From positions 1 through 59,996 of IMG/VR virus record IMGVR_UViG_3300037264_000454: a stretch of 59,996 bases of DNA, one strand, 5' to 3'. This document shows positions 1-4,289 of this stretch, piece after piece. Every line of letters starts with the position of its first letter. The first letter of the stretch is position 1. The translations under genes and the position numbers were made by a program. The DNA comes from a virus. Lineage: Duplodnaviria > Caudoviricetes. The notes below the pieces were generated by a model that searched no databases, had not been told where the DNA came from, and saw only the letters and a program-made list of their open reading frames with translations.

Positions 1-417
1 CGAGCCGCCGCCCCTGACGGGGGCCGAGCCGTAGGCCGTGACCGTGGCCGAGCCGTAGGCCGTGACCGTGGCCGAGCCGTAGGCCCTGACCGTGGCCGAG
101 CCGTAGGCCGTGACCGTGGCCGAGTCGCAGGCCGTGACCGTGGCCGAGTCGTAGGCCGTGACCGTGGCCGAGCCGTAGGCCGTGACCGTGGCCGAGCCGT
201 AGGCCGTGACCGTGGCCGAGCCGTAGGCCCTGACCGTGGCCGAGCCGTAGGCCGTGACCGTGGCCGAGTCGCAGGCCCTGACCGTGGCCGAGTCGTAGGC
301 CGTGACCGTGGCCGAGCGGTAAACGTCAAACCAACCATCACCGATGATGGCAATCAGTTCGCCCGTGTTCTTCTGCAGCGCCGCGTCGAGCTGCTTCTGC
401 GTGCGTACCTCAATCAT
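1..417 (-). CDS. N-terminal part of an SATVTAYG-repeat protein; runs off the left end and probably continues at 59996-59383
   Basis: ATG at 417 overlaps the TGA of the upstream gene (ATGA). Reads MIEVRTQKQLDAALQ...YRSATVTAYDSATVRACDSATVTAYG with no stop before the window edge. Confidence 0.8.
   Translation of the reverse strand, partial: MIEVRTQKQLDAALQKNTGELIAIIGDGWFDVYRSATVTAYDSATVRACDSATVTAYGSATVRAYGSATVTAYGSATVTAYGSATVTAYDSATVTACDSATVTAYGSATVRAYGSATVTAYGSATVTAYGSAPVRGGGS
23..316. repeat. 24-bp coding tandem repeat (gccgtgaccgtggccgagccgtag-type, about 12 copies)
   Basis: Directly visible. Encodes S-A-T-V-T/R-A-Y/C-G/D octapeptides on the minus strand. Confidence 0.95.
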
Positions 418-719
418 GCTGTCGCCTTCTCCCGGTCCTCAAGCGAGCGCCCCAGTTCGGCAAGGAACGCCTCAGCGCCGCCGGTCTGCCACCACGCCAC
501 GAAGACGGCGCGCGGCGTGATGTAGTTGCTGCCCTTGCCGCCGATGCGCGTCGACGGAATCGCACCCGTGCGCCAGCCCGCGTAGACGGTCTGGATGCCC
601 AGGCCCATCACCGCCGCGATCTCGGCAGCGGTGACGGGGTCGGACAAGCGGGTACGGGCGTCGGCGATGGTCTGTTCGACTAGGGCGGTGACGAGGGCGG
701 ATTCGTAGGTCGCGCTCAC
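414..719 (-). CDS. excisionase/MerR-like helix-turn-helix DNA-binding protein
   Basis: GTG at 719 overlaps the stop of the Tas-like gene. Motif VTAAEIAAVMGLGIQTVYAGWRTGAIPSTRIGG is typical of HTH_17/Xis. Confidence 0.75.
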   Translation of the reverse strand: MSATYESALVTALVEQTIADARTRLSDPVTAAEIAAVMGLGIQTVYAGWRTGAIPSTRIGGKGSNYITPRAVFVAWWQTGGAEAFLAELGRSLEDREKATA

Positions 720-1771
720 TTGCCACCTCCGGCGAGCCACAGGTCGCGCAAGACTTCCTTGCCGAGTAGCCGCAGCGCCGCCGCGTTCTGGTGCGATGGC
801 TTCCACGGCGATCCCTCTGGCGCTGGCTTGCCACTTGGCCCGCAGCGGACGCAGGGCTGCGCGTGTACGCGGTCTGCGTAGCGTTCGCGGGCCTTGTCGT
901 AGAACAGGCGGTAGTGCGGGTCGCCGCACTTCATCAGCGACACGGCGATGAGGTAGACCTGCTTCTTGGCGTTGGGGCTGCCCAGCCGCGCGGCATCCTC
1001 TGCGCTCATGCCGGTGTGCTTGCGCCGGTTGGGGTCGCCGTGGCCGCAGTACGACCAGAGGTCGGATACGCGGCGCTCATACGGCCCGTCGTCAATCAGG
1101 GTCCGTTTCTCGCCGCTGCCTTCCCAATGGTGCCGCGTCGTGTGGACGGGATGCCCCGTCTGCCCAAGCAGGCGCGCGAGCGACTTCTCGCCCAATCCCT
1201 TCGCCGCTACCTGCCACGCGATGATGTCGGGGTCGACGACGCGCAGGTAGCAGGCGATGAGTGACTTGAGGATGTCTTTCTCGGTGCGCTTGAGCGAATC
1301 GAGCATGGCCGCGAACTGCGCGAAGTCGACATCCGACAGGGCGATACGGTTGCCCTGTCGGATGCGCTCCTGCTCCGCGTCGTTCAAGGCTTCTGCCCAG
1401 ACGCGCAGGTCGAGGTATCCAGCGGGGGCGGAGTGAGGCTGGGTTTCGCAGCTCGCTTGGCCCCCGCTGGAATCTTTGACGACGGCGCGTGGACGGTGGG
1501 TTTCGCTTGCCGTTTGGCCGTCGTCAAGAGTGGTGCCGCTGGCGGCAACCCGGTGGGTTTCGCTCGATCCTTGGCCAGCGGCAGTAGTTGAAGGACGGGG
1601 CGGTGACGGGCTGGGTTTCGCGATGACCCTGGCCCCGTCCTTGTCTTTGGCCCCGCGCGGAGTACTTATGGGTTTCGGTCTCTCAATGGCGCGGGGCTTA
1701 CTTGAAGGCCGGGGCGGGGTGGGAATGGGCTTCGCTAGTGCCATGGCCCCGGCCAAACTTGCGGCGCTCAC
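716..1771 (-). CDS. tasA: TIGR-associated Tas-like protein (IS110/Nop-like RNA-binding domain, no nuclease; TasA-like)
   Basis: The C-terminal ~233 aa show a coiled coil, KGLGEKSLARLLG, LWSYCG, YRLFYDKARERY and HQNAAALRLLGKEVLRDLW, matching the IS110 Tnp/Nop helical domain. No RuvC DEDD or HNH motif. The guide-like array is immediately 5'. Start placed at GTG 1771 (GTGA overlap with the upstream stop). Confidence 0.8.
   Translation of the reverse strand: MSAASLAGAMALAKPIPTPPRPSSKPRAIERPKPISTPRGAKDKDGARVIAKPSPSPPRPSTTAAGQGSSETHRVAASGTTLDDGQTASETHRPRAVVKDSSGGQASCETQPHSAPAGYLDLRVWAEALNDAEQERIRQGNRIALSDVDFAQFAAMLDSLKRTEKDILKSLIACYLRVVDPDIIAWQVAAKGLGEKSLARLLGQTGHPVHTTRHHWEGSGEKRTLIDDGPYERRVSDLWSYCGHGDPNRRKHTGMSAEDAARLGSPNAKKQVYLIAVSLMKCGDPHYRLFYDKARERYADRVHAQPCVRCGPSGKPAPEGSPWKPSHQNAAALRLLGKEVLRDLWLAGGGK
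1418..1754 (-). ncRNA. stem-loop TIGR-like guide RNA array, 6 units
   Basis: Loop repeat tgggtttcg (+ strand) at 1440, 1497, 1554, 1612, 1669 and 1726 (tgggcttcg). Each is flanked by two 9-nt variable spacers, then gcg/tggc, then a unit-specific inverted-repeat stem (e.g. ggccggggc 1707-1715 / gccccggcc 1746-1754). Confidence 0.9.
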
Positions 1772-2211
1772 GACATGTCTCCGAGACACGTCACGCCGTT
1801 CTTGGTGATGGTGTTCGCCGCTGCTTCGTGGATCGTCGCCGTTGCGATGTTGCCCGATGCGAGGCGGCGGCGTTCGGCGGCGTATTCGAGGTGTTCGTCG
1901 GCAGTCGCTTCGATCCACCAAACGAAGTGGCCGTTGACGGCGAAACGCTTGCCGAGCATGCGGTCGCGGTCGGCGGGATGCTCGAAGAGGCCGCCGACGC
2001 CGCCGGGATTGTCGCGCACTTCGCGCTCTGCCGCGCGGGTCATGGTGCGGACTTGGTTCGCCATCGCGTTGCGGACGATGGGGAACAGTTCCGCCATGAT
2101 GGATTCGCCGTCGAGGTCGGAGATGAATGCGCGGGCGGCTTCGTCTAGGTCTTCGTGCGTGTTGACGTACGCCTGCATGTTACGAACGCGCTGTGTGGCG
2201 TAGGGAGTCAT
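1768..2211 (-). CDS. hypothetical protein translationally coupled upstream of the Tas-like gene
   Basis: 147-aa ORF with 4-bp overlaps on both sides. Confidence 0.75.
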   Translation of the reverse strand: MTPYATQRVRNMQAYVNTHEDLDEAARAFISDLDGESIMAELFPIVRNAMANQVRTMTRAAEREVRDNPGGVGGLFEHPADRDRMLGKRFAVNGHFVWWIEATADEHLEYAAERRRLASGNIATATIHEAAANTITKNGVTCLGDMS

Positions 2212-2783
2212 TCACTGCCTCCGTTGTCGTCGCCCTCAGGGAACAGCGCGCCGAAGTCCTCGTCGGTGCCGTCGTCGGCCTCTGTGCCGTCGTCGGCGCC
2301 CTCTGCGGCTGCGGAGTCGTCGGGCGGCTCATCGTCGCCTGACGGGGCTGTGGTGGGCCCAGGGGCGGTATCCTTGCCCTTCGCCGTGGGGACAAGCGTG
2401 AATGTCTGCTTCGTCCGGCCGATCTGCGCCTTGAACTTGAGCGGCTTCGTGAGCTCCGGACTGCCCTTCACGCGGATGCAGAGGCCGTCGTCGGCCAAGC
2501 CGCTCGCATCGGGGGCGGGGTAGAGGGTGATCTTGTGGCCGCCCCAGTCGTCGGACTCGTCGCCGAACATGGCGCGGGCGCAGACGCCGTTAGTGAGTAC
2601 GGCAGGCATCTTCTTCGGCGTCTCCCTAAAGTGCCAGACGGGCATGGACTTCTCGCTGGCGCTGCCCTTGCCGAGCAACTCCTGCGTCACCGGCTCCTCG
2701 GCCCGGAACGTCAGCGTGTACGGCTTGCCCTTGAAGTCGGCCGCGTAGATGCGGTCCTTCGGGTACATGTCGGAGAACTTCAC
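2208..2783 (-). CDS. putative ssDNA-binding/annealing protein with acidic C-terminal tail
   Basis: Directly downstream of the RecE-like exonuclease; D/E-rich tail. Function is inferred. Confidence 0.5.
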   Translation of the reverse strand: MKFSDMYPKDRIYAADFKGKPYTLTFRAEEPVTQELLGKGSASEKSMPVWHFRETPKKMPAVLTNGVCARAMFGDESDDWGGHKITLYPAPDASGLADDGLCIRVKGSPELTKPLKFKAQIGRTKQTFTLVPTAKGKDTAPGPTTAPSGDDEPPDDSAAAEGADDGTEADDGTDEDFGALFPEGDDNGGSE

Positions 2784-3586
2784 GATGACAACACCTCGAT
2801 TTCGATTTCGTCACTGGGGATCGGATACGCCCACGACGGCAGCCACAGCGGCGCCTCGCGTGGACATTGACCCGGCCAACTGCGCCGTTTCCGGCACCCG
2901 GCCAGCAGGTGGAGCAGTTCGTAGACTTGGTCGCGGCCCATGTCGAGCGTGTCTTCGTCGACGGGGAAGACTGCGACGTCGTGGGGTGCTTCGGCTTCGA
3001 CCGCGATGATGTAGACGGGCCGGTCGATGCCCAGGGCGCGCAGGCCGTTGCTATAGAAGGCCAGTTGCCCGACATAGTTCATACGCGCGACCACGCCGCC
3101 GAAGATGCGTTGGTCGATGTCGCCGGTGGTTTTCAGGTCGAACATGCCGAGCGGGCCGACGAAGTCGAGACGGGCCTTGCAGCGGATGCGGGTCTGCGGA
3201 TCGATCCAGACGATGGACTGCTCCGCCTTGCCGCGCCGTAGCAGTTGCCGGGCGCGCTTGTGGCCGCGTACGGCGTCGCGTACGGCGAGCGCCTTCTCGT
3301 ACTCGGCGGTCTTGAGGATGGTCTTGTCGGCGTTGGCGGCGGCGAACTCTTTCCACTCGTTGCCGCGACGGTCGCCGTTCGTGTAGACGGTGAACTCGAC
3401 GGGGAAGCGATCGGGCTCCAGGACGGCCGAGTGGACGGCGCGACCGAAGGCCATCGCGGGGTTGTCCGTGCGCGGCGTCGCGAGCCGGTGCCGGTAGTGC
3501 TTCGGGGACTTCGCCAGTTCCTTGAGCGTGCCCCAGTTCACGGCGCGGATTGCGGCGTATTCGTCGTAGGATTCGCGTGGGCTCAT
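2780..3586 (-). CDS. RecE/exonuclease VIII-like PD-(D/E)XK exonuclease
   Basis: FGRAVHSAVLEP, EQSIVW, CKARLD, DLKTT and YVGQLAFY motifs. ATG at 3586. Confidence 0.85.
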   Translation of the reverse strand: MSPRESYDEYAAIRAVNWGTLKELAKSPKHYRHRLATPRTDNPAMAFGRAVHSAVLEPDRFPVEFTVYTNGDRRGNEWKEFAAANADKTILKTAEYEKALAVRDAVRGHKRARQLLRRGKAEQSIVWIDPQTRIRCKARLDFVGPLGMFDLKTTGDIDQRIFGGVVARMNYVGQLAFYSNGLRALGIDRPVYIIAVEAEAPHDVAVFPVDEDTLDMGRDQVYELLHLLAGCRKRRSWPGQCPREAPLWLPSWAYPIPSDEIEIEVLSS

Positions 3587-3915
3587 GCCGCCCCCTCCCT
3601 CAGTTGGTCGGCGTCTTCGGCGAAGGCCACGCGGACGGTGCCGCAATCGGGGCAGGTGTCGGAGTCGTCCGGCAGCTCTTCGCCGAAGTCGATGGGGAAC
3701 ACGTCGCGCTCATGCGTCGCCACGAACTCAGCGACGCCGATCTGCTTGCCCTCGGGATCGCGGTACTCGGCGGTAACGGTCATGGTGTCGCCGTGCGGGT
3801 GCCGTTCGATCTCCCTCGACATGCGCAGGTCTTCGCCGAAGAACTCGACCTTGGCGATGGCCTCGAAGGCGTCGGCGGGGGTGTCGTAGGTGCGGGTTCT
3901 TGTGGTGCCGGTCAT
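3583..3915 (-). CDS. hypothetical protein
   Basis: ATG 3915 with 4-bp overlaps; C-terminal CPDC. Confidence 0.6.
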   Translation of the reverse strand: MTGTTRTRTYDTPADAFEAIAKVEFFGEDLRMSREIERHPHGDTMTVTAEYRDPEGKQIGVAEFVATHERDVFPIDFGEELPDDSDTCPDCGTVRVAFAEDADQLREGAA

Positions 3916-4289
3916 GGGGAGACCTCGTATACAGCCTGCACAACGAGCGCCCACAGACCATCGTCGCGTTCGACCCACTCGCCAGCCGCGACGCCGCGAC
4001 CGTCGGGCGTCTCGCACTCAACGAAGCGTCCGGACTCGTGCGAGGGCGGACCGTCGAAGACGATGTGGAGCGGGCGTACCTGCGGTCGCGGCGACTCCTC
4101 TGCCGTGAAGAACCGCTTCCCCCTGGCCACCGGCGCCACTGTGTCCCAGACGAACCCCATCTCGTCGCCAAGGATTCGCCACACCATGTTCGCGTTCTCC
4201 TGTGGCCTTGCGGGCGTGCCGCATTGGAGGGCGATCATCGGAACCGGCTTGCACGCCTCAAGCAGCCTGTCGAACTGCTCTTGAGTCAT
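3912..4289 (-). CDS. hypothetical protein
   Basis: MTQEQFDRLLEACK...; IVFDGPPSHESGRFVECE segment resembles small phage proteins. Confidence 0.6.
   Translation of the reverse strand: MTQEQFDRLLEACKPVPMIALQCGTPARPQENANMVWRILGDEMGFVWDTVAPVARGKRFFTAEESPRPQVRPLHIVFDGPPSHESGRFVECETPDGRGVAAGEWVERDDGLWALVVQAVYEVSP

What the first reader, a model, noticed from the sequence alone, without database searches (positions are those of the whole stretch)
1418..1771. The guide array appears to sit inside the protein's own reading frame (dual-coding DNA)
Seen: the Tas-like frame is stop-free across the whole array. An in-frame GTG at 1771 overlaps the upstream stop (GTGA), the coupling used throughout this genome. 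I see no ATG/GTG with an RBS between the array and the conserved domain (GYLDLRVW). Four of the five spacings are a multiple of 3, and the repeat reads as KP in three units and ETH/ETQ in three. Inference: the mRNA encodes a disordered ~118-aa N-terminal extension and is also the guide precursor, so guide processing would destroy the tas mRNA (autoregulation), and new units must keep the frame open.
Basis: partly seen in the sequence, partly recalled or inferred. Interest (0 to 1): 0.78.

Follow-up and report, generated by a model that had tools for sequence, protein, structure and literature searches.

The report
Guide-RNA array inside its protein gene
A phage gene for an RNA-guided DNA-binding protein (Tas) carries its own six guide-RNA hairpins inside the start of its reading frame, a real and conserved arrangement that a 2026 preprint has already described for this family.

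Summary
On the minus strand, 1756-1419 carries six tandem units. Each is a variable stem, CCA-N9-CG, a 4-nt loop, CCA-N9-CG, and the matching stem. This is the published definition of a stem-loop TIGR array. The downstream domain (1417-719) is a nuclease-less Tas protein; TasH and TasR are the top fold matches.

The tas frame is stop-free from GTG 1771, which overlaps the upstream gene's TGA. There is no in-frame ATG, GTG or TTG between 1744 and 1388.

The window alone is weak evidence: P(open) = 0.13 in architecture-preserving shuffles. Homologous loci settle it:
- The tas frame is stop-free through the array in 39 of 43 loci, against 17 and 7 of 43 for the other sense frames.
- The start codon overlapping the upstream stop is in frame with the Tas domain in 37 of 38 loci.
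- Residues upstream of the only alternative start are under protein-level selection.

So the array is very probably translated as a disordered 118-residue N-terminal tail. Autoregulation through guide processing is untested.

The arrangement is already in print (Xu et al., bioRxiv, Sept 2026). This locus is a new member of a known kind.

The parts
716..1771 (-). Full tas (TasA-like) CDS as read here: 351 aa from GTG 1771 to TGA 718-716
   Evidence: ORF. PHROG phrog_4285 matches aa 117-347, E 1.4e-46. AF2 model.
1768..1771 (-). GTGA: the tas start codon GTG (1771-1769) overlapping the TGA stop (1770-1768) of the upstream gene
   Evidence: The same ATGA/GTGA overlap, in frame with the Tas domain, occurs in 37 of 38 homologous loci.
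1779..1782 (-). GGAG, Shine-Dalgarno-like, 7 nt upstream of GTG 1771
   Evidence: Read directly.
1705..1756 (-). tigRNA unit 1. Core 1746-1715: CCA-N9-CG-AAGC-CCA-N9-CG, 8-bp stem. Read in phase 1 (loop = KP).
1648..1699 (-). tigRNA unit 2. Core 1689-1658, loop AAAC, phase 1.
1591..1642 (-). tigRNA unit 3. Core 1632-1601, loop AAAC, phase 1.
1533..1584 (-). tigRNA unit 4. Core 1574-1543, loop AAAC, phase 2 (loop = ETH). A 58-nt spacing shifts the phase here.
1476..1527 (-). tigRNA unit 5. Core 1517-1486, loop AAAC, phase 2.
1419..1470 (-). tigRNA unit 6. Core 1460-1429, loop AAAC, phase 2 (ETQ). Its 3' stem arm encodes the first residues of helix alpha-1.
719..1417 (-). Conserved Tas core (coiled coil plus Nop-type C-terminal domain), 233 aa, with no nuclease domain
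   Evidence: Foldseek top 10 are all TasH or TasR, probability 1.00. Profile against PDB: TasH E 2.4e-12, TasR entry 9mty E 4.6e-12. 370 homologues.
1386..1388 (-). TTG, the only canonical in-frame start downstream of the array and the start chosen by the database gene call (223 aa). It would remove 10 conserved residues of helix alpha-1.
   Evidence: P0001 begins LNDAEQ. Conservation upstream of it is shown.
1768..2211 (-). Upstream 147-aa gene, translationally coupled to tas. No family assigned.
   Evidence: Weak homologues lie directly upstream of tas in 13 other loci.

Best explanation
This is a stem-loop TIGR-Tas system of an uncultivated phage (relatives are in Actinomycetota). Its six-unit guide array is embedded in the 5' end of the tasA coding sequence.

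Translation:
- Ribosomes start at GTG 1771, coupled to termination of the upstream gene (GTGA overlap, GGAG 7 nt upstream).
- They read through all six hairpin units, producing a 118-residue disordered N-terminal tail.
- They continue directly into helix alpha-1 of the Tas core.
- This much is shown by comparative sequence evidence, not by experiment.

Guide production (inferred):
- The same stretch of RNA, when folded, forms six hairpins. Each presents two 9-nt spacers between box C (CCA) and box D (CG) motifs.
- By analogy with characterised stem-loop systems, these hairpins are bound by Tas dimers and trimmed to about 50-nt tigRNAs. The tigRNAs guide nuclease-free DNA binding, that is, transcriptional repression.
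- A given RNA molecule cannot be both translated through the array and cut within it, so guide production and Tas synthesis compete.
- Tas binding to its own 5' coding region would give negative feedback.

Consequence for the array: it evolves under two constraints. Units are gained or lost in multiples of 3 nt, spacers avoid stop codons, and units are only read in phases 1 or 2.
For: Array identity:
- 6 of 6 units fit CCA-N9-CG-N4-CCA-N9-CG with flanking stems of 8-12 bp. This is the motif set of TIGRFinder for stem-loop arrays (passages of Xu et al.).
- 9 of 10 stem pairs show compensatory changes among the six units; 0 of 500 shuffles reach the observed values.
- The RNA fold gives six hairpins, z = -5.8.

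Protein identity:
- Foldseek ranks 1-10 are TasH or TasR chains.
- PDB profile hits are TasH, E 2.4e-12, and the TasR entry 9mty, E 4.6e-12.

Translation through the array:
- There is no in-frame ATG, GTG or TTG between 1744 and 1388.
- Residues upstream of TTG 1388 are under protein-level selection. Leu4 is invariant in 49 of 49 distinct sequences and is encoded by all six Leu codons. Arg5 is kept in 42 of 49 with at least four codons.
- These residues are in helix alpha-1, residues 115-145, pLDDT about 98.
- Among 43 non-redundant loci with at least 2 units next to the domain, the tas frame is stop-free in 39. The other five frames are stop-free in 17, 7, 17, 15 and 14. Total stops are 7 against 54, 86, 46, 61 and 86 in 3,990 codons per frame.
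- The 4 exceptions each have their own in-frame start 2-27 codons before the domain.
- By family, 25 of 29 (80% identity) or 15 of 19 (60% identity) are open in all members.
- The ATG/GTG overlapping the upstream gene's stop is in frame with the Tas domain in 37 of 38 loci; 1/3 is expected.
- Unit-number differences within families are 57, 63, 114 and 228 nt.
- 67 of 120 database homologues carry N-terminal extensions of 60 aa or more, with periodic DTH/ETQ/KP motifs.
- AF2 gives pLDDT below 50 for residues 1-3, 36-56, 58-100 and 102-113.

Prior experimental precedent: intragenic tigRNAs of B. longum TasA were recovered by small-RNA sequencing, and TasA acts as an RNA-guided repressor (sections of Xu et al.).
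Against: - There is no direct evidence of translation, transcription or processing for this locus.
- The RNA-library contigs found cover only 1741-2009 and 2059-2268 and cannot show transcripts or ends.
- In the window alone, an open frame arises by chance in 12.8% of architecture-preserving shuffles.
- The array shows no GC3 codon bias (0.64/0.69/0.65).
- The database gene call for this very contig starts at the TTG, giving 223 aa.
- A homologue at 39% identity, mycobacteriophage BPBiebs31 gp74, keeps its array outside the CDS. It has its own AAGGAGG plus GTG and in-frame stops in the array. Embedding is therefore not obligatory for the family.
- Loci are phylogenetically related, so the p-values overstate independence.
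- My unit detector is strict. 29 of 82 usable loci had fewer than 2 adjacent units and were not counted.
- The autoregulation step is pure inference.
Confidence: 0.78

Rival explanations
1. The array is an untranslated leader or intergenic guide array, as in mycobacteriophage BPBiebs31. Tas starts downstream, at TTG 1388 or a non-canonical codon, and the open frame across the array is a by-product of GC-rich sequence.
For: - P(open) is 0.128 in architecture-preserving shuffles.
- GC3 is flat.
- The database gene call is 223 aa from the TTG.
- BPBiebs31 has a separate SD plus GTG, and stops in the array.
Against: - A TTG start would delete 10 residues of helix alpha-1. These are conserved at the protein level with synonymous codon variation.
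- No SD-like motif (GGAG, GAGG, AGGA) is seen in the 20 nt before the TTG (read).
- There is no near-cognate in-frame start between unit 5 and residue 4 (read).
- 39 of 43 homologous arrays are open only or mainly in the tas frame.
- 37 of 38 coupled starts are in frame.
- It would leave a 380-nt untranslated gap in an operon whose other junctions all overlap by 4 nt.
Confidence: 0.1
2. The repeats are a protein-level tandem repeat, a proline- and threonine-rich low-complexity linker. They are not an RNA guide array, and the hairpins are incidental.
For: - The extension is low-complexity and predicted to be disordered.
- The period is about 19 codons.
Against: - The same nucleotide motif is read in two different frames within one array, KP against ETH/ETQ.
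- Conservation is at the nucleotide level: CCA, CG and AAAC are invariant columns.
- Stems co-vary at 9 of 10 pairs.
- The stretches between the motifs are hypervariable 9-mers, exactly as in published stem-loop tigRNAs.
- The protein is a Tas by fold.
Confidence: 0.03
3. The array is dual-coding, but guides and mRNA come from separate transcripts. Promoters inside or upstream of the array produce the guides, so there is no coupling between guide maturation and Tas synthesis.
For: - Xu et al. state that genomic sequence cannot distinguish processing of a tas-containing transcript from independent promoters (Discussion).
- Nothing in my data addresses transcript ends.
Against: - No sigma-70-like promoter or terminator was found in 300-4200. 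This scan does not cover actinobacterial promoter types well.
- The array starts 15 nt after the start codon, within a tightly coupled operon (one search measures 16 nt from the first base of the overlapped stop).
Confidence: 0.25

Closest known systems
Stem-loop TIGR-TasA systems with intragenic arrays (Xu et al., bioRxiv 10.64898/2026.09.09.750476; the example is Bifidobacterium longum TasA)
   Same: - Nuclease-less Tas.
- Tandem hairpin units with two 9-nt spacers flanked by box C (CCA) and box D (CG), and variable stems.
- The array lies inside the tas CDS without breaking the frame and corresponds to a disordered protein region.
- The authors already suggest a link between tigRNA maturation and Tas translation.
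   Different: - In BlTasA the experimentally shown embedded segment maps to the internal wedge loop. Here all six units sit at the extreme 5' end, starting 15 nt after a start codon that overlaps the upstream gene's stop.
- There is no alternative start here, so read-through is obligatory.
- In the text I read I saw no statistics on frame preservation, coupled starts or unit phase. Supplements and figures were not visible.
Mycobacteriophage cluster A (Fromanvirus) gp74-type genes, e.g. BPBiebs31 gp74, annotated 'transposase' or 'DNA binding domain protein'
   Same: - Homologous Tas core: 39% identity over 98% of the domain.
- Same PHROG.
- Stem-loop units upstream on the same strand.
- A PDDEXK-type exonuclease gene nearby.
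   Different: - The array lies in a 338-nt intergenic gap.
- The tas frame has 3 stops in it.
- gp74 has its own AAGGAGG plus GTG 3 codons before the domain.
Dual-repeat TIGR-TasR/TasH systems (Faure et al., Science 2025, PMC12045711)
   Same: - Same protein fold: the top Foldseek hits are 9w03, 9vzx, 9w04, 21kl and 9mty.
- Dual 9-nt spacers per guide, which pair with the two DNA strands.
   Different: - Those arrays have conserved edge and loop repeats and give 36-nt tigRNAs cut by the Tas protein.
- The arrays were expressed downstream of the gene.
- The effectors carry N-terminal HNH or RuvC nucleases. Here that position is taken by the array-encoded tail.
IS110/IS621 bridge-RNA recombinases
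   Same: - Related RNA-binding C-terminal domain: 8wt6 at E 1.5e-3 in Foldseek.
- In the PDB profile search, chain 9mty_A carries the depositors' name 'Transposase IS116/IS110/IS902 C-terminal domain-containing protein', E 4.6e-12. Foldseek lists the same entry as TIGR-TasR.
- From my own knowledge, not from a call: the guide RNA is encoded next to the 5' end of the protein gene.
   Different: - No DEDD/RuvC or Tnp catalytic domain here.
- The guides are a tandem array of box C/D-like hairpins, not one bridge RNA.

Membership tests
TIGR-Tas, stem-loop type | Tas protein with the coiled-coil plus Nop-type C-terminal fold | tested here: met
   - AF2 model pLDDT is above 90 for residues 115-351.
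- Foldseek PDB ranks 1-10 are all TasH or TasR, probability 1.00, TM (target) 0.55-0.73.
- Profile against PDB: TasH E 2.4e-12.
TIGR-Tas, stem-loop type | [quoted passage not shown] | tested here: met
   6 of 6 units are CCA-N9-CG-N4-CCA-N9-CG on the tas strand. The definition is taken from the TIGRFinder methods passage.
TIGR-Tas, stem-loop type | Variable but palindromic flanks forming a stem of at least 5 bp around each spacer pair | tested here: met
   - Stems are 8-12 bp.
- 91.7% of cells are paired and 9 of 10 pairs have changes on both sides; 0 of 500 shuffles are as high.
- The MFE fold shows six hairpins, z -5.8.
TIGR-Tas, stem-loop type | Conserved CUU at the stem base, the reported processing boundary | tested here: inconclusive
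   Reading the unit alignment and flanks: CUU lies at the 3' stem base of units 1 and 3 and just 5' of unit 5. It is absent at the other stem bases.
TIGR-Tas, stem-loop type | The array is transcribed and processed into Tas-bound tigRNAs that guide DNA binding | not testable with these tools
   - RNA-library contigs cover only 1741-2009 and 2059-2268.
- No spacer target was found in the 60-kb contig.
TasA (nuclease-less Tas) | No HNH or RuvC domain N-terminal to the Nop core | tested here: met
   - No Pfam family at E <= 0.1 on the 351-aa protein.
- Residues 1-113 are without secondary structure and mostly below pLDDT 50.
Intragenic (5'-embedded) TIGR array | Array units lie within the tas reading frame without stops, and the frame is the translated one | tested here: met
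   - There are 0 stops in 118 codons.
- There is no internal canonical start.
- Protein-level conservation begins at the array's end.
- Homologues: 39 of 43 open and 37 of 38 coupled starts in frame.
- Translation itself was not observed.

The most novel reading that the evidence does not exclude
In this clade, translation through the guide array is obligatory and coupled to the upstream gene. Each transcript must therefore be either translated or cut into guides, and Tas binding to the hairpins in its own 5' coding region sets the ratio of Tas to guide (autoregulation).

The coding constraint also shapes the guide repertoire:
- Units are tolerated only in two of the three reading phases. 0 of 160 units in open arrays are in phase 0, and all 30 phase changes are between phases 1 and 2.
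- Spacers that create stop codons are purged.
- Units are gained or lost only in multiples of 3 nt.

Neither the phase rule nor a filter on spacers by the genetic code was stated in the text I could read.
Probability: 0.35. Interest if true: 0.62.

Novelty: new member of a known kind. Interest (0 to 1): 0.45.

Why it matters
Overlap of a guide-RNA array with the coding sequence of its own effector is an unusual form of dual coding. One stretch of DNA must satisfy RNA folding, guide specificity and an open reading frame all at once.

This locus is a clean natural example. All six guides lie between a coupled start codon and the first helix, with no alternative start, so it suits a test of whether guide maturation and effector synthesis compete.

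The comparative numbers obtained here (frame kept in 37 of 38 loci, phase 0 never used) give quantitative support to a statement that the preprint text I read makes qualitatively.

There is also a practical consequence. Gene callers truncate these proteins (223 aa against 351 aa here), and array finders that mask coding regions will miss such arrays.

Tried and rejected
- Pfam gave no family for the Tas protein or for its two upstream neighbours. PHROGs gave only phrog_4285 'transposase', a name that reflects the IS110-like C-terminal domain and not a demonstrated transposase.
- Codon-position GC is flat in the array. I considered this evidence against coding. I set it aside because RNA constraints fix most positions.
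- Window-only significance is P = 0.128, not significant on its own.
- Self-target search. I tried rc(A)+B, B+rc(A), A+B and rc(B)+rc(A), gaps 0-6, both strands of the 59,996-nt contig. There were no sites with 1 mismatch or fewer. There were four 2-mismatch hits at three distinct sites, against 0-2 in each of 10 shuffled-spacer controls. No target is claimed. The contig is about 73% complete and no host genome was available.
- The promoter and terminator scan of 300-4200 found 0 of each. This says little for actinobacterial promoters.
- Sequencing runs. One DNA run holds the whole stretch and may be the source of the contig. Two metatranscriptome runs from another study gave short contigs at 1741-1869, 1871-2009 and 2059-2268 only. 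The contig ending at 1741 abuts adapter letters. These runs cannot show transcription, strand or ends, DNA carry-over is possible, and the lack of cover over 700-1740 means nothing.
- Extra matches to the unit regex elsewhere in the window (minus strand 52182-52140, 51975-51934, 16557-16520, 7364-7332) are isolated. They have loops of 5-15 nt and look like ordinary coding sequence. I judged them chance matches.
- Per-unit stop rates are zero for the used phase by construction, because only open arrays were taken. I use only the rates for the unused phases.
- Supplementary files and figures of Xu et al. and Faure et al. were not available. They may list this contig or give statistics on intragenic arrays.
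Full report
WHAT IS THERE

The window is a 59,996-nt virus record, 64.7% GC, with a CheckV completeness estimate of 73%. Positions 414-3646 hold five minus-strand ORFs that follow one another. Each start codon overlaps the previous stop by 4 nt (ATGA/GTGA at 2783/2780, 2211/2208, 1771/1768 and 719/716). The fourth ORF is the gene in question. Its frame is open from 1921, and the in-frame GTG at 1771-1769 overlaps the TGA of the 147-aa upstream gene. GGAG lies 7 nt upstream at 1782-1779.

THE ARRAY

On the minus strand there are six units with cores at 1746-1715, 1689-1658, 1632-1601, 1574-1543, 1517-1486 and 1460-1429.
- Each core reads CCA-N9-CG-(AAGC or AAAC)-CCA-N9-CG and is flanked by an inverted repeat of 8-12 bp.
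- Only the motif columns and one G-C pair are invariant.
- The stems differ between units but stay complementary. 91.7% of cells are paired, 9 of 10 pairs change on both sides, 0 of 500 shuffles reach the observed values, and slid registers pair at 37-57%.
- The RNA folds into six hairpins, with z = -5.8 against 100 shuffles.
- The methods passage of Xu et al. [quoted passage not shown] All six units meet it.

THE PROTEIN

- Pfam finds nothing. PHROGs places residues 117-347 in phrog_4285.
- A profile of 30 homologues hits the solved TasH (E 2.4e-12) and the TasR entry 9mty (E 4.6e-12).
- An AlphaFold2 model built from a 50-sequence alignment has pLDDT above 90 for residues 115-351. Residues 1-113 have no secondary structure and are mostly below pLDDT 50.
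- Foldseek against the PDB returns TasH and TasR chains at ranks 1-10 with probability 1.00, followed by IS621 and ISCro4 recombinases.
- There is no nuclease domain, so this is a TasA-type protein.

Every sequence statement is correct:
- The frame has 118 stop-free codons from GTG 1771 to the Tyr at 1417.
- The other five frames have 1-4 stops.
- Spacings are 57, 57, 58, 57, 57.
- The loop is read as KP in units 1-3 and as ETH/ETH/ETQ in units 4-6.
- There is no in-frame ATG, GTG or TTG between 1744 and the TTG at 1388.

The window alone does not prove anything, however. When the motifs and pairing are kept and spacers, stem pairs and linkers are shuffled, the frame stays open in 12.8% of 20,000 trials. 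There is also no GC3 bias. The gene call stored in the protein database for this contig is the 223-aa form starting at the TTG.

COMPARATIVE TEST

Data set:
- A search with the 233-aa core found 370 proteins at E <= 1e-5.
- Of the best 120, 67 have 60 or more residues N-terminal to the core. These extensions show periodic DTH/ETQ/KP motifs about 19 residues apart.
- I fetched 17 viral, 9 genomic and 80 metagenomic loci, plus mycobacteriophage BPBiebs31.
- Of 108 sequences including the window, 82 had the N-terminal end of the core and at least 200 nt upstream.
- 53 of these had at least 2 detected units next to the core. Merging arrays at least 97% identical left 43.
- The other 29 were not counted. 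They had fewer than 2 adjacent units by my strict detector. Several have their own start a few codons before the core.

Result 1: the frame is kept open.
- The tas frame is stop-free through the array in 39 of 43 loci (38 of 42 without the window). The other sense frames are open in 17 and 7 of 43, and the antisense frames in 17, 15 and 14 of 43.
- Total stops are 7 against 54, 86, 46, 61 and 86 in 3,990 codons per frame.
- Paired sign tests give 22:1 and 31:0.
- The four exceptions (BPBiebs31, L022, L029, L083) each have an in-frame start 2-27 codons before the core.
- By Tas family, 25 of 29 at 80% identity and 15 of 19 at 60% identity are open in all members.

Result 2: the coupled start is in frame.
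- In 38 loci an upstream ORF ends near the array with a stop overlapped by ATG or GTG. In 37 of them that start codon is in frame with the Tas core, across arrays of 36 to 174 codons.
- One third would be expected if array length were free.
- In 2 further loci the upstream stop is not overlapped by a start, and in 3 no upstream ORF end was found.

Result 3: close relatives differ by whole units. Spans are 293, 407 and 521 nt in one family, 303 and 366 in another, and 280 and 337 in a third. All the differences are multiples of 3.

Result 4: the residues right after the array are under protein-level selection.
- Leu4 is invariant in 49 of 49 distinct sequences and uses all six Leu codons.
- Arg5 is present in 42 of 49, and Gly0, Glu3, Ala8 and Glu9 vary synonymously.
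- These residues lie upstream of the window's only alternative start and inside helix alpha-1.

Taken together, translation must enter the core from upstream. In this window that means from 1744 or further upstream, and most plausibly from the coupled GTG at 1771.

A CONTRAST IN THE SAME FAMILY

In BPBiebs31 (39% identity; 90 phage records match, 83 of them mycobacteriophages), the array sits in a 338-nt gap. The tas frame has stops in it, and gp74 has its own AAGGAGG-N7-GTG three codons before the core. So embedding is a clade feature, not a family rule.

AN EXTRA REGULARITY

- In the 39 open arrays, the 160 units are read only in phase 1 (53 units) or phase 2 (107 units), never in phase 0.
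- In the four closed arrays, 5 of 11 units are in phase 0.
- By my count from the list, there are 30 phase changes between neighbouring units, and all are between phases 1 and 2.
- Phase 0 is the most stop-prone reading. 54 of 157 distinct units would contain a stop in phase 0, against 32 of 157 for the unused one of phases 1 and 2.
- This fits the fact that phase 0 exposes three free codons per spacer instead of two. That is an inference, and it may not be the whole reason.

MECHANISM

- Supported by comparison: the coding status of the array.
- Taken from the literature: stem-loop arrays are processed into single-hairpin guides; TasA binds DNA and represses transcription in an RNA-guided way; B. 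longum TasA has tigRNAs embedded in its CDS (sections read).
- Inferred: here the same transcript serves both purposes, so cutting within the first 350 nt of the CDS, or Tas binding there, would reduce Tas synthesis.
- I could not test this inference. No targets were found on the contig, and the sequencing runs were uninformative.

NOVELTY

Xu et al. (Results section read) state the following:
- These arrays correspond to disordered regions.

They also note extended disordered N-terminal regions in TasA clades. A full-text search for tigRNA plus intragenic returned only that preprint. In the 2025 Science paper, my term search for 'coding sequence', 'open reading frame' and 'overlap' found no statement that an array lies inside a CDS.

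This locus is a new, particularly clean member of the kind. The frame, coupled-start and phase statistics are my own additions. They may or may not be in the supplements, which I could not see.

Noticed in passing
window 1-417 (minus strand; ORF runs off the contig end): There is a long tandem repeat with a 30-nt period. It encodes about 10 copies of a decapeptide such as YGSATVTAYG/YDSATVRA at the C-terminal part of an ORF that starts at 417.
   Followed up: no
L013/L014 3045-3301; L022 3013-3160; L025 3073-3706 (locus coordinates): Some homologous tas genes carry further units that match the same box C/box D pattern inside the core coding region. Their cores are correspondingly longer (matches of 855-996 nt instead of about 700). 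This fits the internal (wedge-loop) arrays described by Xu et al.
   Followed up: partly
Homologous arrays in L003-L096: Units inside open reading frames are read only in phases 1 or 2 (0 of 160 in phase 0), and all 30 phase shifts between neighbouring units go between 1 and 2. Phase 0 occurs only in arrays that lie outside the CDS.
   Followed up: partly
Proteins P0036, P0039, P0040, P0041, P0045: These are five 329-aa relatives. The stem-encoded peptide segments are nearly identical (LDDLLTG, AGQHLLPDG, AVGD). The spacer-encoded triplets differ in almost every unit, and all stay stop-free. This points to rapid spacer turnover on a fixed scaffold.
   Followed up: no
window 1768-2211 (minus): The 147-aa gene coupled to tas has no Pfam or PHROG family. 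Weak homologues (28-49% identity, E 1e-5 to 4e-17) lie directly upstream of tas in 13 other loci, so this may be a conserved two-gene module. It is not ParB-like by Pfam.
   Followed up: partly
window 2780-3646 (minus): This is a DUF3799 PDDEXK-like protein (E 4e-36), two genes upstream of tas. BPBiebs31 also has an annotated exonuclease two genes away from its tas homologue.
   Followed up: no
window 716-1388 versus 716-1771: The protein stored in the public protein collection for this contig is the 223-aa form starting at TTG 1388. Automatic gene calling therefore truncates the protein and hides the embedded array.
   Followed up: yes
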